Shown here piece by piece: positions 20,917 to 62,670 of a stretch of DNA of 64,000 nt (position 1 is the stretch's first letter; each line of letters starts with the position of its first letter). The position numbers and the translations under genes were made by a program. The stretch comes from the human T2T-CHM13v2.0 reference genome, Homo sapiens: assembly GCF_009914755.1 (NCBI RefSeq), contig NC_060933.1, one strand, 5' to 3'. The notes under the pieces are model-generated. The model had not been told where the DNA came from, ran no database searches, and saw only the letters and a program-made list of their open reading frames with translations.

Positions 20917-21382
20917 CTGGAGGGAGAAAGAGAGCTCCTCGAAGGCGGCCTTCTCGAACCTTAATTCGTGTGACACCAGGTGCCACATACCACCTCTCCA
21001 AAGTCAGGCTGGCCTTTGGAGCACTGGCAACTTTATTGTTCACTATTAACTCTAAGTCATAAAGTTTTACTTGGACCTGGAAAGGCCTATTCATCACATC
21101 TCTTTTCAACAGTCTTGTTAATAGCTTTTCAGGTTTCAGAGACCAGAAGAGACCCATGGGGTGGACTCCCATATAATCCCCTCCAAGTGAAGAAGCATGA
21201 TTCAGGTCCACCTCACCGAATTCATTGGCCCTATAGTGGGCTTGAGAATAAAACATGTCTCCGTTTTCATCTTCCAGTGATGCCTGAAAACTCACCATCT
21301 GAAAGGGAATCAGGCCTGTAGCTTGGATATGCACTGGCTCATCAACAAGTGCACTCACAGGGGTAGCTGTCAACTGGATCAT
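20917..21382 (-). CDS. BAAT: BAAT first coding exon (bile acid-CoA:amino acid N-acyltransferase, residues 1-155)
   Basis: ATG at 21382 gives [19 protein letters not shown]...GALFLPP, the ACOT/BAAT N-terminal domain. 466 coding nt end at donor CAG|GTGAGT (20917/20916). Acceptor at 21441 follows a polypyrimidine tract. Confidence 0.98.
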
Positions 21383-21929
21383 TTTTTTAGTGTGGCACCT
21401 GGGATGATTCTTCAGGAATATCTTCAGCAAAACCTCAAAACCTCAAAAAAGAAAGAAAGAGGAGCAGTAAAATAAAGTAGAGATAAGGGTTGATGAAAGG
21501 TGAATTGAATCAGCAGTCAGACCACTTAGGAGTCAGTTCTAACCCTCTAGTTCTTTAGAAACTTCCTGATATAGTCTTCTAGTACAAGACACCTGAGAGC
21601 TTTCAATGAATTTCCAGAAGACAGTAAGCAAGCTGACAAATTTTATAACAATAATGAACCACTGTTAAAGAAGCAGCAGCCAAAATATGCATGAATGGTA
21701 TCAATACATCTAGGAAGATAACACAATCTGTTATACAGAACCTTTAAAAGAAATCAGGTACAATGGAGGATAAAAATAAGATGTGGGTTTGAAAATATGG
21801 TTATTTATTGAACGTTTATATATATATGAGACATTTGACTTCACGCTAATCCCTTCCCCAAGTCCTGGAAACAGAATGCCTTGCATCCAAGAGTTTACCT
21901 GCAACAGAACATAAAAAAATAGAGGGATC

Positions 21930-29279: not shown

Positions 29280-30483
29280 AATGTCGCATTTTGACATGCC
29301 CAGGAACCTCCAGTTATTTGGAAATCTTTAGAAGAATTCACCCAATTTATACAGCTATTGCAGCCTGATGGCAAATCCCTGGCTTTGTTAGCCTCAAGGC
29401 TTTAAAAAAATCTGAGATTCTTTATTTAAAAGTTCCAAAAAAGCCAATTTTACAAGAACCTATATGGCCAATCACTATTCTTGCTGCACTTTATGCAAAT
29501 AATCAGGTCAAGCATAATGAGACTAAAATTCATTTTGCAAATAAATTGGTCCTACAATAATTTATCCTTGGTAGAAATAGAGAAACTTAGAAAAAAATTG
29601 TTTCAGAAGAAAACTATTGTACACCCATGATTAGATTCTAGTCTTAACCATTGTTTTTATTACTTGCCTACAATTTGGACTAAATCCTAAATTATTTTGT
29701 GGCTACAAGAAGTCTCTAAAGACAAACCCGGTTTTAATTTTCTTCATGTTGTTTTTAGTTGGCTCCCTAATGGAATAGGTTCTTTTTTGTTGTTGTTGTT
29801 CTGGCATACAAATTCTGTTTTTGATTGTAGTCCCTTGTGTGCATATTAATGTTATTTATCTCTCATTGTTTTACTTCATCCAAGAAAATCAAAATCATGG
29901 TACTCCAAAGACTAGAGATGATTCAAGAAAGCCTATGCATTTTTTCTCATCTGAAATCCCACTGGGCCTGATCTGTTTCCCATTGCCAGTGCACTGCTGC
30001 TAAAGCTGTACAATATCAAGCACCCTTCCTCTAAACTCAAAGACCATTGAAGAAGAGGACAGTGTGTGAGATTCTAAAAGCCCAATTAGAAAGCTGGAGT
30101 GTGGAGGTTATAGCAACTCCATCTTGAATTCTAATCTGCCATGTTGACATCTGATTAATCCCACTTCTAGGAATGCCTTTAAGATTTCTGCCTTATCTAC
30201 TATCTCTTGTATAAGAGCACCTACCATAAATCCTACCCTTAGGCAAATTCCTACATATTCCTGCTGAAGCATGTATATCCTTTCCCTATGGTATATCAAC
30301 CCTGGGTCTGGGGAGTAACAGTGAGGGGATCCTTTGTCTCACAGCTGCCTGAGACACAGCTTCTGTTTGTAAGCCCCTATTAAATGTTTCTCTCTGAGAA
30401 ACTGTTTTGTCACTCTCTTTGTTCAGTGTCTCAGCTCCCTTGGCCTTTGGGGGTAGGTTTGCACAGACCTGCTCACTTACCAC
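29280..30483 (+). mobile_element. ERV1 (MER4-group) internal remnant and LTR (~30100-30483); related remnants at ~26770-27520
   Basis: ERV-internal-like sequence followed by an LTR with ATTAAA. Family is uncertain. Confidence 0.5.
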
Positions 30484-30739
30484 AGAGCAAGCTTACTCAC
30501 AGCATGGTGGCTGGGTTGGAAGGGCAAGCAACACAAGAGAGAAAAAGCTAGGTAGAAGCTGTATCCTTTTTATATCCTAGCACTGGAAATCACATAGCAT
30601 AATCTCTGCCATTTAATAGCAGCCACAAGCTCCCATCACAATTCAAGTGGAGAAAATGTTGATACCTATTAACAGTAGGAGATATGTCAATCACATTGTA
30701 AAATTTTTTTAAGTGGATGAAACGTGTATGTGTATTTGC

Positions 30740-31111
<372 letters not shown>

Positions 31112-31219
31112 TAAAGGAGCAAATAATAAATGGGATGAATGGAAATGGGAGTTTAAACCCACACATATCAATAATTACGTTAAATACAAACAGATCAAAC
31201 ACTCCAATTAGAAGACACA

Positions 31220-31546
31220 GGCCAGGCGTGGTGACTCATGCCTGTAATCCTAGCACTTTGGGAGGCTGAGGTATGAGGACCGGTTGATCCCAGGAGGTTG
31301 AGACCAGCCTGGGCAACATAGTGAGATCCCATCTCTACAAAAAAAAAGTAAAAATTAGCTGGGTGTGGTGGGGCAAACTTGTAGTCCCAGCTGCTTGAGA
31401 GGCTGAGGCAGAAGAATTGCTTGAGCCCAAGAGGTCAAGGATGCAGTGAGCTGTGATCATGCCACTGGGTGAAAGAGCTGACTCCACCTTGGGTGAAAGA
31501 GCTGAAATCCTATCTCTAAAATAAATACATACATAAAAATAAAAAA
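31220..31546 (+). mobile_element. AluJ with a small internal duplication
   Basis: AluJ consensus. TSD AGAAGACA. TGGGTGAAAGAGCTGA is repeated. Confidence 0.9.
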
Positions 31547-32048
31547 GAAGACAGATTGTCAAACTAATTGAAAAAGCAAGTGGTTATTTTTCAGAAACAC
31601 ATTGTCAAAAAAAGACAGATTGAAAGTAAAAGAAAATATATGCAACAGTGTTTGTGTTGCATATATGTGTATATATAGATGAGAGATGAGACAGACACAG
31701 ACATAAATACATGCTGACAAGAATGAGCCTACAGAGAGAGAAGTCCTGAGAATGATAATTCAGTGGTGAGTAAACATTGAATATGTTTCCTGAGAAGCTT
31801 AAAAATAAGTGATACTATAGCTTCCAAGTACCGTATTTCATTTGTTTTCTTGTAATCAAGAAATTGAGTACTTAAGATCATACAGAAATACATGAGAGTC
31901 AGAAATGGAATCTACATTTCCAACTCTTAGTCAAATTGATTAGTACTTCAAAAAGAATTTATCAAGAGTCTACATGTCATAGTCACTGACAGATAAGATG
32001 CAGTTCCTACTCTAAATAAGCTTAAGGTATAGTATTTCTTCTACATAT

Positions 32049-32744
32049 TGTTACAGTAGGTAGCTAGTCATGCATGAGTGGGGCAGGAGAGGGTTGCCCC
32101 CACCCACCAGAATGTCAGGTGACTATCAGGTGATGGTCACTCTGCTTCTCTAAAATAACAATTGGTCACAGCCAGCACCAGGGAGAGGCAGTTTCTCAAC
32201 TGATAAAAACACCTGAAATTGATAATTGGCAGCTTTCAGGAACTGGGCGAATGAGCTCAAACATGCACATTAAGAGTCAAAATGGCAGAGTATGACCTTC
32301 CAGGGGCATTCCACCAGAATTTGAAAGAAAGCCTCAGATAAGCATGCATAAAACTCCAGTAAACACACTGTGCATGCCCACATCCCAAGCACAAGCAGGG
32401 CACCATGCATGTGGGTGGCTCCCCATAACCCTTAAGGGAAGGATGAAGGGAAAGGGGTGCAAGATGCCAGAAGTAGGCCAGCATATAAAATCCTAGGTTC
32501 AAGGATGAACGAGGCACTTGACCTCCAAGATGCCTGCTTGGGTCTCTCCCAAGTGTGTTTTCCTTTCTTTCCTGTTCTAAAGCTTTTTAATAAACTTCTG
32601 CTCCTGCTCTGAAACTTGCCTTGGTCTCTTTTACTGCCTTATGCCCCTCAGTTGAATTCTTTCTTTCGAGGAGGCAAGAAATGAGATTGCTGCAGACCCA
32701 TACAGATTTGCCACCAGTAACTCAGATATTCACCACCCCTAACA
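32049..32744 (+). mobile_element. ERV1 solo LTR (MER50-like)
   Basis: TG...CA ends, 4-bp TSD ATAT, TATAAAA at ~32484 and AATAAA at ~32589. Confidence 0.8.
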
Positions 32745-33449
32745 ATATTATCCATTCAATTTATTTCTATACAAATATCACATGCATCAACCAGCGTGCC
32801 CAAACAGAAATAAGTCAATTAGAAAGTCATTAACTTTAGCTCAAACTTATACTTGCTTTTTTTGGTATTTTTTAACATTACATTTCACTACCAGAAAGCA
32901 TTCCTGAATTGCATAAATAGGTATAACATATATTCAAAGCTTCAAGAAATATTTTCACAGAATCTAATTCTAACATGGCATTAGTCTTACATTAAAAGAA
33001 AATTACCCTTCAAACAAAATATAAATAGGACCACAGTACAGTTTCCCAGAATAGGAGGGCTTATTCTATAAAATTCTAGGCAATAGTCTTTTAAAAGAGG
33101 GAGAAATATTGATGGGGATGGGGAAGACAGAATAAAGAAATTTTAACAAATGACTTCTGATAGCCTTTCATTTTCCTCAGAAATATAAATTTCAGCTCAA
33201 TATCATCATAATAGCAAGTCCCTACTGACATCCTTTCTAAGCAAATCAAAATGAAAAGACACACTTATCTGAGCACTCTGGGCAACTCTACAGCTGAGAT
33301 TATGAAATGAACAAAAAGACTATTTGTCCTCATGAACTGCTAAAATTCCAAACACTGAGGTAAATAAACTCTGATTTAATTCAAGAGCAGAGATTTTAAC
33401 TTATTTCCAATCGGCCCAAATAAATAGTCCTGATTAAAATACAAAGTAC

Positions 33450-33500
33450 CTGGATTCTTCCTCTTGAGCCTTCTTTTCCAGCAGTAGAGGGAAAATGACA
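33450..33500 (-). other. BAAT: Probable alternative non-LTR first exon of BAAT
   Basis: Donor CAG|GTACTT at 33450/33449 in unique sequence, with an HNF1-like site ~110 bp upstream. Consistent with a recalled second BAAT 5' variant ~1.5 kb downstream of the first. Confidence 0.5.
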
Positions 33501-34834
33501 GACACCCTACCAAAACTTGCCCAGAAGGCCAAAACCTCAAATATGCCTTTGGAAGTATAACAGAGCTAACTTAAGTGCTAGGTCACCACATACCTCTTGC
33601 TCTAGTTTCCTATTAATTTTTAACAGTTATTGAACCCAATAAATGTATCACTATTTTCCCTCTTCATTTTCTGTTCTCTCTAAATCCGTCCCTCTTAGGG
33701 ATTGCCACTACATTTTACTCACATTATTTTAATAATTTTCTTTATAGAAGTTGTTTGACCCCTATTGGCACCATTAGGGCATATTTTTCTTCTGCAATAA
33801 AATACTCAAGGTAACTTCTGGAGGGCTCTGCATTTGCAAATGGTTTCTTTCCTGAGACAACAAAAGATGAAAACTACAAATGTGATCACAGTAATGAGTA
33901 ATAAAATACTCAAGCCCCACTTTCAGAATTTGGGGAGGACCAAATCTCCTACTAATCCTCCTCAACTAATTCACATGGTTTCTTGAAATAGCTACAGAAC
34001 GGAGTGTTAGTAGGATTTTACATGACAATAAAAGGACTATCTCCATAAAAGTACTGGATCTTTTTTGAGGTGATAGAGCATTTAAAAAGTGCAAACTTAA
34101 AGGAAACTTAAATTCAACTTAATTTTAAGGAAGTCTGATCAGCCAAATACTCCATAAAAAACTTGAAAACTATTAAGCTACTACCTTGCAAGACTTATGC
34201 TACAGATACAACTGATTAAGAATTATTAACTGGGATACATAAAATATTCCTAAAAAAGTAATGTCTAAAAATCTCAGGTGAATATGAGAAAAAGTCTTAA
34301 ACAGGTACTTAACAGACAATAGGACACAATCATAAGCTTATGGGAAAAGGCTTAATCTCATTATCAAAGAAATGCAAATTAAAATCATGGTGTGTATTTC
34401 ATACCTAAAAGGTTGGCAACAATTAAAAATTCCAAAAATAAGAGTTGGTTAGGAAGTGAATCACTCAGACTCAAGCCCTACTAAGGGAATATAAATTGGT
34501 ACCACCACTTTGGAAAGCAATTGGACATTGTCTAATAAATGTGACAATATGAATAACTTTTGACCCAGCAATTCTTCTTCTAGAGAATAAAAATAAATGA
34601 ATTACAACTACATGCAATAACCTGGATGAATCTTATAAACATAATGTCGTTAGAAACTAGTCATAAATACACATAAATAAATCTTTCAAATTTGTATTTG
34701 CTGAACTAAAACTATAGGCCACATTTTTGGAGTAAATCTTTAAACAAAAGCAAGGAAAGGATTACTGAGAGTCTGGATTGTGGTGAAAAATTACATTAAA
34801 AGAATGGAAGTAAGTAAATGAAAAAAATACATAC

Positions 34835-34990
34835 CTAGCAAGAGAACCTGCCCCCAAAATTTCAGCGTAGGTTCTATTTTCCCTAAGTGTCGGCTGGTCT
34901 GAGAAATAAAGAGAAAGAGTACAAAGAGAGGAATTTACAGCTGGGCCTCCGGGGGTGATGTCACATATCAGCAGGACCGTGAGGCCCCGA
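34835..34990 (-). other. BAAT: BAAT non-coding first exon inside the 3' end of the MER11 LTR
   Basis: Strong donor TAG|GTATGT at 34835/34834 at the LTR end, same orientation as BAAT. An LTR (MER11A) promoter for BAAT is recalled from the literature. The TSS position is approximate. Confidence 0.75.
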
Positions 34991-35980
34991 GCCACAAAAC
35001 CAGCAAGTTTTTATTAAGGATTTCAAAAGGGGAGGGGGTGTATGAACAGGGAGTAGGTCACAAAGATCACATGCTTCAAAGGGCAAAAGGGAGAACAAGA
35101 TCACATGCTTCTGAGGCCAATAAAGATCACAAGGCAAAGGGCAATGCAAAGATCACAAGGCAAAGGGCAAACTTAGAATTACTGATGAGGGTCTATGTTC
35201 CACTGTGCATGTATTGTCTTGATAAACATCTTAAACAACAGAAAACAGGGTTCAAGAGCAGAAAACCGGTCTGACCTCAGATTTACCACAGCAGGATTTT
35301 TTCCCCATCCTAATAAGCCTGAGGGTACCGCAGGAGACCAGGGTGTATTTCAGTCCTTATCTCAACTGCGTAAGACAGACACTCCCAGAGTGGCCGTTTA
35401 TAGACCTCCCCCTGGGAATGCAATTCTTTTCCTAGGGTCTTAATATTTAATATTCCTTGCTACAAGAAGAATTTAGCGATATCTCTCCTACTTACACGTC
35501 TGTTTATAAGCTCTCTGCAAGAAGAAAAATATGGCTCTATTCTGCCTGACCCCACAGGCAGTCAGACCTTGTGGTTGTCTTCCCTTGTTCCCTAAAATCA
35601 CGGTTATTCTTTCTTTTTCAAAGTGCACTGATTTCATATTGTTCAAACACACGTTTTGCAATCAATTTGTACAGTCAGATACAATTACAGTGGTCCTGAC
35701 GTGACGTACATCCTCAGCTTACCAAGATATGAGGATTAAGAGATTAAAATAAGACAGGCGTAAGAAATTATAAGAGTATTATTTGGGAAGTGATAAATGT
35801 CCATGAAATCTTCACAGTTTATGTTCAGAGACTGCAGTAAAGACAGGTGTAAGAAATTATAAAAGTATTAGTTTTGGGAACTGATACATGTCCATATTAA
35901 AATGAAATCTTCACAATTCATGTTCCTCTGCCGCGGCTCCAGCCAGTCCCTCCATTTGGGGTCCCTGACTTCCCGCAACA
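34836..35980 (-). mobile_element. MER11 (HERV-K/HML-8) solo LTR, MER11A-type
   Basis: Minus strand starts TGTTGCGGGAAGTCAGGGACCCC. 6-bp TSD CATACC/CATACT. Inserted in old L1 sequence. Confidence 0.9.
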
Positions 35981-37627
35981 CATACTATGCAACAATAAGC
36001 ATAAGAAACCTAAAGTAGTAATGACTAAGATTATAAAATATATATATATCATATATCTATATGACAAGATCATAAAAACCATAAATCCGAATAATGGATT
36101 TCAAGATTTATGTGGCAAAAATTGACAGAATTAAAAGGAGAAATAGGAAAAATAACAATTCCATAACCATGAGTGAAGGTGTTTAAATCCCTTTTAACAA
36201 TTGGTAGAAAACTTGAAAAAAATCAGTAAAGGCATAGATTTGAACACTATAATGACCTTACCCTAATCGCCTCAACAACTTCAAATGTACACGGCATGTT
36301 CAACAAGATAGGCCATAAGTTAGGCCATAAAATCTCGATACATGTAAAAATACTGAAATCATATATCTCAATGAAATTAGAAATTAATAACATTAAGCCA
36401 TCTAGAAAACTCCCAAATATTTGAAAATCAAACATATTTATGTCATGAGTCAAAAAGAAATCACACTGGAAATTAGGAAATATTTCAAACTGAATGATAA
36501 AGGAAGAATAATATAATTTTTAAAATTATAAAATGAAGCCAAAGCTAAAAAATTGATAAGCCACAACCTAGATTGATTAAATAAAAACAAGATAGGACAC
36601 AAATAACAAATAGCTCAAAATGAAAGTGGGCCTATTATTATAGATCCAACTGACATTAATTAGGGAATATTATGAACAATTTTATGCTAATTAATTTGGT
36701 AACTTACATGAAATCAATTACTTGAAAAAATTTATTGAAGAATAAATGAGACCAAGAAACAATAATTAACGACCAACTCAATAAACCAGGATTGGATCCT
36801 GGATTGGAAGTGAAATTGCTATAAAGGTCATTACTAGGACATTGGTGAAATTTGAATATGGACAGTATATGATTATTGTTACATCAGTGTTACATAGTTT
36901 GAATTTGGTATTTCATGATGGAAAGCAAAACTTTGATGATTGCTCCAGTCTGTTACTGTACAGCTGAGATTAACTTTGGAATTCTATAGGATCAGAGGTT
37001 ACAGACTATTTTTAAATTTGGAAACTTTTCAAGTAAAAGCTTTAGGATTTTTGCACTGTGTAACAACCTAGTGAAAATTTCAAAGTCCTTGTCACTTTGT
37101 GTTTTAGGATTCACAGAATACATGCTAATGGGATTATGAATCAAAGAAGTAGGACCAAATTGTTCATTCTTAGGTTTAGGGTCAAGAAATTTACAGTACA
37201 GTATCTTCTACTTCTGAGTAGAAAGATCTATGGCAGACCAATTCTCTAAGAACTAGAAAAGCAGGATTAAAAAGAACAGAAAAGCAAAACACTGGGAAGA
37301 ATTTAAATATCCAGTTGAATATTGGTTAAATAATTGCATGACATCTAATTATACAATAATATGCTATTAATCAAATTTGTTATTCTTGTCTTTAAAAACA
37401 TGGGGAAATGCTTATAATGTGAAGGGGAGCATGATGCCATAGTAATTGTAAAATACAGGAAAATAATTGTTTTCATTTGGAAATATACCAAAATGTTAAG
37501 TAATTATGAGCGGCAAGATAGTTTTGTTTTTTCATTCTTGTTTTTGCTTTTTTCCTTCCCAATTTTCTAAAAAGAACGTGCTACTTTTGTAATCAGAAAA
37601 ATGACACGTTAAGAAAGGAGGGAGGAG

Positions 37628-37633
37628 TTTATT
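37628..37633 (-). terminator. MRPL50: Candidate distal poly(A) signal of MRPL50 (proximal ATTAAA candidate at 39963-39958)
   Basis: AATAAA on the minus strand downstream of the MRPL50 stop. Usage is inferred. Confidence 0.45.
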
Positions 37634-37938
37634 TTATGCTGTTTAAAACATATATTACATATGTAAAACCATTCTATTGAGTCTGAATCTCTATTTTATT
37701 AGCAGGCTTTATTTAAGCATACCTACTAAGCTTACAGAAGTTCCATCTAAGTAAAATTAGTTAACTGATACCCTTTTTATGTAGCAATCATTAAATTTTT
37801 AAAAATGTAAACCCTTTAAAATTACATCATATGTTTGATTATCTCATTAAACAAGTTAGCAAGCCTAATTTAATCTTTCAGGAAAACTAAAGGCCATTAT
37901 TCTGATATATTCACTGTATTGAACTATAAACCAGTGAT

Positions 37939-37950
37939 GCCCTCTAGTGG
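37939..37950 (-). promoter_or_regulatory. CTCF core motif CCACTAGAGGGC
   Basis: Close match to the CTCF core consensus. Occupancy is unknown. Confidence 0.6.
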
Positions 37951-38485
37951 TACTGATGGACGTACAGTTTACCTTCCCTGTTAGGATGTGTTTACCCTCG
38001 TCGGCTAAATTTACCAAGACTGTTGTTTCAGGTGGCAGTACTTGTCTCCCACCTCAATACCAGCATCTAGATCCATGTTCTCAAAACATAATCAGCTTTT
38101 GAAGCATGCAGAAGCTCAGGACCTACTCCAGACTTACCAAATCAGAATTTGCATTTTTAAAAGATCCCCACATGAAAAAATGAATAAAAGATCCCCAAAT
38201 GATTAACATGCGCATTAAATTTTGAGAATATTGCTCTAGGCTACAAAGGAGAAATTTCTTCTGTCCTAACGATCACATGAAGCTGCTTGGTTTTTGCAGT
38301 TACCACTCCAGTTGTAACTGTTTTTCCACATAGACCTTCTCATCCCTTATTTCCATCTTGCCCTTTGTTTTTCCGTGTCTCTGGATCAGAAGGAAAAATT
38401 GTATAGAAAATGAGATAATGAAATCCTGTACATAAAATTCCAATGATTCCATGCTGAATCTTTTACACAGCAGAAGCAGGACATA

Positions 38486-62362: not shown

Positions 62363-62670
<308 letters not shown>

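What the first reader, a model, noticed from the sequence alone, without database searches (positions are those of the whole stretch)
34829..35986. BAAT first-exon splice donor is formed at the MER11 LTR / target-site-duplication junction
Seen: the LTR (34836-35980, -) is flanked by CATACC and CATACT, a 6-bp TSD with one mismatch. On the minus strand the LTR's terminal TA plus the downstream TSD copy reads TAG|GTATGT, a strong 5' splice site. The upstream copy reads AGTATG. The only TSD mismatch is the exon -1 base, and the G state gives the consensus donor. Established (recalled): BAAT uses a MER11A LTR promoter. Inference: the insertion brought promoter and donor together, possibly improved by an A>G change afterwards.
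Basis: partly seen in the sequence, partly recalled or inferred. Interest (0 to 1): 0.72.

Follow-up and report, generated by a model that had tools for sequence, protein, structure and literature searches.

The report
BAAT retroviral-LTR first exon, host-derived donor
An old retroviral LTR supplies the start of the main human BAAT transcript, and its first exon ends one base into host DNA at a splice signal that was already in the host sequence; the LTR promoter is well known and the junction detail is a small addition.

Summary
On the minus strand a 1,145-bp solo LTR (35980..34836, TG...TA) lies between AGTATG and GGTATG, a 6-bp target-site duplication matching at 5 of 6. Twenty other genomic copies fix the boundaries: 19 of 20 end in TA at the same column and 12 of 20 have perfect 6-bp duplications. 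RefSeq's select BAAT transcript starts inside the LTR (34986) and its exon 1 ends at 34835, the first duplicated host base.

- Seven of the nine donor positions, including GT, are host DNA that existed before the insertion. The LTR's terminal TA adds about 0.4 bit.
- The donor is ordinary, not strong: 7.43 bits, 35th percentile of 337 real donors.
- G rather than A at -1 is worth about 3.3 bits, but the direction of that change cannot be tested here. No primate orthologue or paralogue was available.

Print names the LTR MER11A (HERV-K11/HML-8), restricted to Old World primates. My divergence estimate is about 22-25 My. The LTR promoter is already known.

Unexplained: the exon's last 30 bases are unusually diverged and unique in the genome.

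The parts
35981..35986 (-). Upstream copy of the 6-bp target-site duplication (AGTATG on the minus strand). Together with the LTR's first T it reads ATA|GTATGT.
   Evidence: sequence. (register shared with kin). (3.79 bits, 3rd percentile as a donor).
34836..35980 (-). Solo LTR of 1,145 bp with termini TG...TA. Print names it MER11A (HERV-K11 / HML-8).
   Evidence: 39 other long matches at 83-90% identity (2,213 first-look candidates, 40 scored); ends defined against 20 copies. Print.
34830..34835 (-). Downstream copy of the target-site duplication (GGTATG). Its first base is the last base of BAAT exon 1; bases 2-3 are the donor GT.
34829..34837 (-). The 5' splice site TAG|GTATGT. Positions -3 and -2 come from the LTR, -1 to +5 from the duplicated host hexamer, and +6 from the next host base.
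   Evidence: 7.43 bits, 35th percentile of 337 real donors. It ranks 9th of 426 GT sites on this strand in 30000-38000 and is the best of 13 between 34990 and 34700.
34835..34986 (-). BAAT non-coding exon 1 of NM_001701.4 (select): 151 nt of LTR plus 1 nt of host DNA.
   Evidence: RefSeq table. CAGE-supported young TSS over an LTR at BAAT in print (PMC5932608, Fig. 1B legend and text).
35010..35015 (-). AATAAA in the LTR, 29 nt upstream of the RefSeq TSS. It is the only AATAAA in the LTR.
   Evidence: motif positions. (same hexamer in 15 of 20 copies). The reading as poly(A) signal or TATA-like element is inference.
34836..34865 (-). Terminal 30 nt of the LTR and exon 1, unusually diverged and unique in the genome.
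   Evidence: 1 place (itself) at 3 or fewer mismatches; 766 places for a kin 30-mer; 7 of 30 differences; 6 positions shared with 1 or fewer of 20 copies.
33723..33853 (-). Alternative BAAT first exon (NM_001374715.1), outside the LTR. Donor AAT|GTGAGT, 8.56 bits.
   Evidence: Print reports two 'mammalian' (old) TSSs at BAAT (PMC5932608). Equating them with these exons is my inference.
33450..33544 (-). Alternative BAAT first exon (NM_001127610.2), outside the LTR. Donor CAG|GTACTT, 6.00 bits.
20917..21441 (-). BAAT exon 2, the acceptor for all three first exons. It is preceded by a pyrimidine tract and AG; the start codon is at 21382-21380.

Best explanation
A retrovirus of the HERV-K11/HML-8 group integrated in sense orientation about 1 kb upstream of BAAT's older first exons, in an ancestor of Old World monkeys and apes. 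It later collapsed to a solo MER11A LTR.

The main human BAAT transcript now starts inside that LTR, 29 nt downstream of the LTR's only AATAAA. It runs through the last 151 nt of the LTR and one base into host DNA. There it is spliced from a GT that belongs to the downstream copy of the 6-bp target-site duplication, to exon 2 some 13.4 kb away.

The donor is essentially a pre-existing host GTATGT that became useful once a promoter was placed 152 nt upstream of it. The LTR contributes only positions -3 and -2.

Shown: boundaries, duplication, exon ends, donor score.
Inferred: that GTATGT preceded the insertion (from how duplications arise), and that the AATAAA sits where a TATA-like element would.
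Undetermined: whether the G at -1 is ancestral or arose after insertion. I put the odds near even.
For: - Sequence and annotation.
- LTR ends and 6-bp duplication in register with kin: 19 of 20 end in TA and 12 of 20 have perfect duplications.
- Donor scores 7.43 bits, 35th percentile. It is the best GT between the TSS and 34700; the next best scores 4.82.
- The LTR end alone does not make donors: 0 of 20 other copies have a junction donor as good, and the best is 6.04 bits.
- The upstream duplicate also reads GTATGT, which shows that the motif is target DNA.
- Acceptor with pyrimidine tract and AG at exon 2.
- Print: MER11A LTR as BAAT's primary promoter (PMC9684439, PMC6486989, PMC4419796; passages).
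- Print: a young 'Old World anthropoid' CAGE TSS over an LTR, plus two old mammalian TSSs, at BAAT (PMC5932608, passages).
Against: - I saw no RNA reads or CAGE data myself. Exon ends and TSS rest on RefSeq and on a figure legend.
- The matrix was trained on only 337 donors from the 20 most donor-dense chr9 bins, which are gene-dense and probably GC-rich, and it treats positions as independent.
- Subfamily A versus B or C could not be tested against a repeat library.
- The divergence date (about 22-25 My) is younger than the print range for MER11A proviruses (43.5-33.5 Mya).
- No orthologous empty site was seen, so the claim that GTATGT pre-existed rests on the mechanism of duplication alone.
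Confidence: 0.82

Rival explanations
1. One reading: the target hexamer began with A, as the upstream copy still does. The new LTR exon first met a poor donor (about 4.15 bits), and a later A>G change at 34835 was fixed because it improved splicing.
For: - G versus A at -1 is worth 3.28 bits with background correction. The upstream copy as it stands scores 3.79 bits, 3rd percentile.
- The flanks are AT-rich by eye, which mildly favours A as the original base.
- The neighbouring 30 nt of the exon also changed unusually fast, which would fit tuning of this exon end.
Against: - A single mismatch is expected without selection. Two of 20 kin have 5 of 6 and two have 4 of 6. About 46% of duplications are expected to carry at least one mismatch at the measured divergence (arithmetic).
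- A neutral G>A change in the untranscribed upstream copy explains the data equally well.
- No outgroup or paralogue could be examined. Matches to the flanks stop at least 119 nt (upstream) and 168 nt (downstream) short of the junction.
Confidence: 0.45
2. The duplication is only 5 bp (GTATG) and the G at 34835 is the last base of the LTR. The whole exon would then be retroviral and the donor would start exactly at the LTR edge.
For: GTATG/GTATG would be a perfect match. Two kin (L009, L015) look like 5-bp duplications shifted by one base (my reading).
Against: 19 of 20 copies end in TA at the same column. The next base is G in only 6 of 20, and 12 of 20 have perfect 6-bp duplications starting right after that TA.
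Confidence: 0.04
3. The exon end at 34835 is an annotation artefact or a minor isoform. BAAT would mainly use its two older first exons downstream of the LTR.
For: Two other RefSeq first exons exist (33723-33853, 33450-33544). One has a better donor, at 8.56 bits. I saw no expression data directly.
Against: NM_001701.4 is the 'select' transcript. Three papers call the LTR the primary promoter or list BAAT as LTR-regulated. A CAGE-supported TSS over the LTR is shown in PMC5932608.
Confidence: 0.05

Closest known systems
The BAAT MER11A LTR promoter as already described (Cohen, Lock and Mager 2009, seen only as a citation in PMC9684439, PMC4419796 and PMC10703691; Li et al. 2018, PMC5932608, Fig. 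1B)
   Same: It is the same locus and the same element. The LTR gives the main, evolutionarily young TSS of BAAT, and older TSSs persist downstream.
   Different: In the passages I read nothing is said about where exon 1 ends relative to the LTR edge or the target-site duplication. Cohen 2009 is not held, so I cannot say that it is silent on this.
Other LTR-derived promoters with a non-coding first exon: MER21A for CYP19A1 and HSD17B, LTR2 for APOC1, LTR12D for DHRS2 (listed in PMC4419796)
   Same: A sense-oriented LTR supplies the TSS and a non-coding exon 1 that splices to the gene's normal second exon. The effect is tissue-specific.
   Different: Here the LTR part of the exon holds no usable donor; the best GT inside it scores 1.7 bits. 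The donor is the first host GT, inside the duplication. I did not examine the donors of the other genes.
Retroviral major 5' splice donor in the leader downstream of the primer binding site (recalled general retrovirology, not from a call)
   Same: A 5' splice site lies a short distance downstream of U5 and serves transcripts that start in the LTR.
   Different: A solo LTR has lost the leader and its donor. The BAAT donor is host DNA and is unrelated to the viral donor.

Membership tests
MER11A LTR of HERV-K11 / HML-8 (class II, betaretrovirus-like ERV) | Full-length similarity to a multi-copy LTR family in the genome | tested here: met
   2,213 first-look candidates, 40 scored; 39 other long matches at 83-90% identity, most spanning query 1-1137 of 1145; a kin terminal 30-mer has 766 places at 3 or fewer mismatches, and 0 in the reversed control.
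MER11A LTR of HERV-K11 / HML-8 (class II, betaretrovirus-like ERV) | Best match to the MER11A library consensus rather than MER11B, C or D | not testable with these tools
   No repeat library is on hand. The name comes from print for this very LTR (PMC9684439, PMC6486989, PMC4419796). PMC12273786 reports that MER11A/B/C labels are partly inaccurate.
MER11A LTR of HERV-K11 / HML-8 (class II, betaretrovirus-like ERV) | 6-bp target-site duplication (the size for this class is recalled) | tested here: met
   5 of 6 in the window; 12 of 20 kin are perfect at 6 bp.
MER11A LTR of HERV-K11 / HML-8 (class II, betaretrovirus-like ERV) | Canonical retroviral LTR termini TG...CA (recalled) | tested here: not met
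   TG...TA in the window and in 19 of 20 kin. It is a trait of the whole family rather than of this copy, so it does not argue against membership of MER11.
MER11A LTR of HERV-K11 / HML-8 (class II, betaretrovirus-like ERV) | Such LTRs flank an internal region with betaretrovirus-like gag-pro-pol and a primer binding site | not tested
   One attempt was made: 80 nt after an LTR end that has a second LTR end 2.2 kb away (C8). It showed no TGG-type primer site, and I dropped the line. Print: HML8 = HERVK11I/MER11A, class II beta-like (PMC4724089).
MER11A LTR of HERV-K11 / HML-8 (class II, betaretrovirus-like ERV) | Restricted to Catarrhini | not testable with these tools
   No primate genomes are available here. 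Print: no HML8 element in Platyrrhini (PMC10194239); BAAT's LTR TSS is classed 'Old World anthropoid' (PMC5932608).
LTR-derived promoter and first exon of a host gene | TSS inside a sense-oriented LTR | tested here: met
   The RefSeq exon 1 start at 34986 lies inside 34836-35980, on the same strand. CAGE evidence comes from print only.
LTR-derived promoter and first exon of a host gene | The LTR-initiated exon splices to the gene's ordinary downstream exon without changing the protein | tested here: met
   All three RefSeq first exons join 21441 and the coding part is identical. A pyrimidine tract and AG precede exon 2.
U2-type GT-AG 5' splice site | GT at +1/+2 and a score within the range of real donors | tested here: met
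   TAG|GTATGT scores 7.43 bits; the range of 337 real donors is -0.22 to 12.5 with median 8.40. It is average, not strong.

The most novel reading that the evidence does not exclude
The LTR-derived exon was reshaped after insertion to make a marginal host GT usable. On this reading an A>G change at the exon's last base lifted the donor from about the 3rd to the 35th percentile. A burst of locus-specific changes in the last 30 nt of the exon (7 of 30, unique in the genome) dissolved a 9-bp terminal U5 hairpin that most family members keep and that would have ended one base short of the exon end, covering donor positions -3 and -2. Together with a TSS placed 29 nt after the LTR's own AATAAA, so that the transcript starts beyond the viral poly(A) signal, this would be a stepwise, datable maturation of a viral U5 into a host first exon.
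Probability: 0.15. Interest if true: 0.5.

Novelty: already known. Interest (0 to 1): 0.3.

Why it matters
BAAT conjugates bile acids, and its main human promoter is a textbook case of a retroviral LTR taken over by a liver gene.

The detail added here is that the LTR brought only the promoter and a donor-less exon body. The splice signal was a host GT that happened to lie in the six duplicated bases. This shows how little an insertion needs in order to become a working first exon, and that the flank, not the element, can decide which insertions are usable. Zero of 20 other copies have an equally good junction donor.

It also offers a clean, datable test case. Primate orthologues would show whether the donor was ready-made or was improved later.

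Tried and rejected
1. Polarising the duplication mismatch inside the human genome. I searched the 420 nt on each side of the LTR against G000. Apart from self, no match comes closer than 119 nt (upstream) or 168 nt (downstream) to the junction. There is therefore no paralogue or older repeat to show the original base.

2. A larger donor training set. I kept the 340 donors of the first 20 bins.

3. Naming the family by a primer binding site. Among the 99 listed places, I took the one pair of LTR ends 2.2 kb apart (C8) and read 80 nt past the first end. There was no TGG-type site, so I dropped the line and named the family from print. I did not look for pol, because it could not be located without risk of fetching envelope sequence.

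4. The 5-bp duplication reading, rejected.

5. The open-hairpin idea, left weak.
   - Folding the last 45 nt puts the window at mean P(unpaired) 0.80 for the last 8 nt. That is the highest of 21, against 0.06 or less in 10 of 20 kin.
   - However, L011 and L019 reach 0.78.
   - Eight of 20 kin have an equal or weaker minimum free energy.
   - When 15 intron bases are added, the window's minimum-energy fold (-12.0 kcal/mol) pairs the donor region with the start of the 45-nt stretch folded.
   - The clustering of locus-specific positions gives P = 0.0006 (last 30 nt) and 0.002 (last 8 nt) for the fixed terminal window. Allowing any window, 9% and 62% of 5,000 shuffles reach the same count.

6. 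Print.
   - Cohen 2009 is not held.
   - PMC10194239 has no occurrence of TATA, polyadenylation, primer binding, tRNA, target site or lysine.
   - PMC12273786 and PMC10703691 do not mention BAAT in their main text.
   - I found no statement on the donor or duplication in searches. For these I read only the listings and the BAAT passages of four papers, so absence from print is not shown.
   - Supplements are closed. Per-element age tables of PMC12273786, PMC10703691 and PMC5932608 may hold this LTR's oldest orthologue.

7. Rfam over the whole window gave one hit unrelated to the finding.
Full report
**What is in the sequence.** Read on the minus strand, the stretch begins with host DNA ending ...GCATAGTATG. 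A repeat then starts TGTTGCGGGAAG at 35980 and ends ...GGTTCTCTTGCTA at 34836, and host DNA resumes with GGTATGTATTTTTTT. RefSeq lists three BAAT mRNAs. NM_001701.4, marked 'select', has exon 1 at 34835-34986 joined to 21441. NM_001374715.1 and NM_001127610.2 start at 33853 and 33544 and join the same exon 2. The select exon 1 therefore consists of 151 LTR bases plus one host base, and the intron begins with the GT at 34834-34833.

**Is the repeat real, and are its ends right?** A search of the whole reference with the 1,145 bases gave 2,213 first-look candidates, of which 40 were scored. These were the window itself and 39 other long matches at 83-90% identity, most covering query 1-1137. I fetched 20 of those 39, namely those whose match began at query position 56 or earlier. 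The 19 whose match began at position 155 or later were left out. Each was fetched with 60-68 nt of flank.

- Aligned end by end, 19 of 20 start with TG, and 19 of 20 end with TA in the same column as the window copy.
- Similarity stops there. The window's next six bases are shared by only 2 to 10 of the 20 copies per position.
- The hexamers flanking the kin match at 6 of 6 in 12 copies, 5 of 6 in 2, 4 of 6 in 2, 3 of 6 in 1 and 1 of 6 in 3.
- By eye, L009 and L015 look like 5-bp duplications shifted by one base, and L017 is perfect if its LTR has lost its first two bases.

The window's 5 of 6 has a chance probability of 19/4096 at a fixed register (my arithmetic). The boundaries 34836 and 35980 and the 6-bp duplication are thus confirmed. 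G34835 is host DNA, not LTR; the base after TA is G in 6 of 20 kin.

**The donor.** I built a position weight matrix from 337 GT donors. They came from 340 annotated donor positions of select and BestRefSeq mRNAs in the 20 most donor-dense 9.9-kb bins of chr9, three of which were GC donors. Chr9 has 8,109 such positions in all.

- TAG|GTATGT scores 7.43 bits, the 35th percentile of the real donors (median 8.40, range -0.22 to 12.5).
- It ranks 9th of 426 GT sites on this strand between 30000 and 38000.
- It is the best of the 13 GT sites between 34990 and 34700. The next best scores 4.82 bits, and the best inside the LTR part of the exon scores 1.7.
- G versus A at -1 is worth 3.28 bits with background correction (85% versus 7% of donors).
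- The upstream duplicate as it stands, ATA|GTATGT, scores 3.79 bits, the 3rd percentile.

The site is a working, ordinary donor. 'Strong' is not supported. The training set is small and comes from gene-dense regions.

**Who contributed what.** Of the nine donor positions, -3 and -2 (T, A) are the LTR's last two bases, -1 to +5 are the duplicated host hexamer, and +6 is the next host base. A target-site duplication copies sequence that was present before integration, so GTATG followed by T was already in the host. The upstream copy also reads GTATGT because the LTR happens to begin with T. Replacing the older host context at -3/-2 (A, T, as still seen upstream) with the LTR's T, A changes the score by about +0.4 bit (by hand from the table). 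The junction therefore hardly makes the donor. The insertion supplied transcription through a host GT site 152 nt downstream of the new TSS. That this depends on the flank is shown by the kin: 0 of 20 have a donor of at least 7.43 bits with the exon end within -2 to +6 of the LTR end, and the best is 6.04 bits in L002.

**The A/G mismatch.** Both copies were identical at integration, so one has changed. Among kin, 2 of 20 show 5 of 6 and 2 of 20 show 4 of 6. With a pairwise non-CpG distance of 0.098, about 46% of 6-bp duplications of this age should carry at least one mismatch (my arithmetic). The mismatch alone is therefore not evidence of selection. Its direction needs an outgroup. No primate genome is reachable here, and the flanks have no paralogue in the human reference that covers the junction. 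I put the odds near even. If the original base was A, the first donor would have scored about 4.15 bits.

**Family and age.**
- Three papers name this very LTR. [quoted passage not shown] The others are PMC6486989 (passage) and PMC4419796 (passages).
- PMC4724089 files HML8 as class II, beta-like, with Repbase names HERVK11I/MER11A (passage).
- PMC10194239 reports 78 HML8 proviruses and about 500 solo LTRs. It reports none in Platyrrhini and gives the main acquisition of MER11A-type proviruses as 43.5-33.5 Mya (passages).
- PMC5932608 uses BAAT as its Figure 1B example: two old 'mammalian' TSSs and one young 'Old World anthropoid' TSS over an LTR, with FANTOM5 CAGE (legend and text).
- My own dating: the K2P distance without CpG sites between the window copy and the 20 kin averages 0.098 (range 0.084-0.120), the same as among the kin (0.098 over 190 pairs). 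Half of that is about 25 My at 0.2% per My (the rate used in PMC10194239) and about 22 My at 2.2e-9 per year (the rate used in PMC12273786). This is somewhat younger than the print range.
- I could not test subfamily A against B or C, because no repeat library is on hand. PMC12273786 notes that these labels are partly inaccurate.
- The termini are TG...TA rather than the canonical TG...CA (the canonical form is recalled). This holds for 19 of 20 kin and so is a family trait.

**Extra observations around the exon.**
1. The LTR's only AATAAA (35015-35010) lies 29 nt upstream of the RefSeq TSS, and 15 of 20 kin have the same hexamer there. If it is the viral poly(A) signal, exon 1 is roughly U5 and the transcript starts beyond that signal, with the AATAAA in the position of a TATA-like element. 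This is inference. I saw no 5'-end data.
2. The last 30 nt of the LTR are unusually diverged.
   - A 30-mer taken from L009 has 766 places in the genome at 3 or fewer mismatches, and 0 in the reversed control.
   - The window's own 30-mer has one place, itself, and differs from the L009 30-mer at 7 of 30.
   - Positions where the window base is shared by at most 1 of 20 kin number 43 of 1,145 overall, 6 in the last 30 and 3 in the last 8.
   - For the fixed terminal window this gives P = 0.0006 and 0.002. When any window is allowed, 9% and 62% of 5,000 shuffles reach the same count.
3. In 10 of 20 kin the last 9 nt form a terminal hairpin, with mean P(unpaired) of the last 8 nt at 0.06 or less. 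In the window copy the value is 0.80, the highest of 21. Against reading much into this:
   - L011 and L019 reach 0.78.
   - Eight of 20 kin have an equal or weaker minimum free energy.
   - With 15 intron bases added, the window's best fold pairs the donor region again.
4. The LTR-exon 5'UTR has one upstream ATG, followed at once by TGA (read, 34966-34961). Exon 1b has four and exon 1c has none.

**Verdict.**
- The element is a real, old solo LTR of the MER11/HERV-K11 (HML-8) kind, aged roughly 22-43 My.
- The LTR promoter of BAAT is already known.
- The new point is anatomical: the first exon's donor is a host GT inside the target-site duplication.

**Limits.** I had no RNA data, no primate genomes and no repeat library. 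Supplements are closed and Cohen 2009 is not held. The donor matrix is small.

Noticed in passing
window 35010-35015 (minus strand), TSS at 34986: The LTR's only AATAAA sits 29 nt upstream of the RefSeq TSS. Exon 1 would then be roughly the viral U5, and the transcript would start beyond the LTR's own presumed poly(A) signal, which lies where a TATA-like element would. The same hexamer is present in 15 of 20 kin.
   Followed up: partly
window 34836-34865: The last 30 nt of the LTR and exon 1 differ at 7 of 30 from a kin 30-mer that has 766 genomic places at 3 or fewer mismatches. The window's version occurs once. In 10 of 20 kin these bases close a 9-bp terminal hairpin that the BAAT copy lacks. 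Significance is marginal once any window is allowed.
   Followed up: partly
window 34836-34837 and L001-L020 ends: The LTR family ends in TA, not the canonical CA, in the window and in 19 of 20 kin. The start is TG in 19 of 20.
   Followed up: partly
window 35058-35165: Imperfect tandem duplications inside the LTR: a 34-nt unit x2.2 (73% matches) and a 14-nt unit x3.3 (68% matches), just upstream of the AATAAA.
   Followed up: no
window 34961-34966: The single upstream ATG of the LTR-derived 5'UTR is followed directly by TGA, a start-stop pair. The alternative first exons give 4 and 0 upstream ATGs.
   Followed up: no
window 36038-36062: A short (AT)n microsatellite lies about 50 nt upstream of the LTR.
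   Followed up: no
window 62363-62479 (+): The only Rfam hit of the window at gathering score is Metazoa_SRP, 73.5 bits. It spans model positions 1-299 of 299 but only 117 nt of the window. It is probably an Alu-type SRP-derived repeat rather than an SRP RNA gene, which is my inference.
   Followed up: no
L004 (G000 C4:142957424-142958696), upstream flank: This kin has no target-site duplication (1 of 6), and a purine-rich stretch lies directly before the LTR, like a polypurine tract. It may be the 3' LTR of a provirus. I did not extend or translate it.
   Followed up: no
L041 (G000 C8:66673537-66673656) and C8:66675758: Two LTR ends of the family lie 2.2 kb apart in the same orientation. The 80 nt after the first end show no TGG-type primer binding site.
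   Followed up: partly
window 48593 / 48826: MRPL50 (-) and ZNF189 (+) start head to head, 232 bp apart, by the given annotation. This is a likely bidirectional promoter.
   Followed up: no
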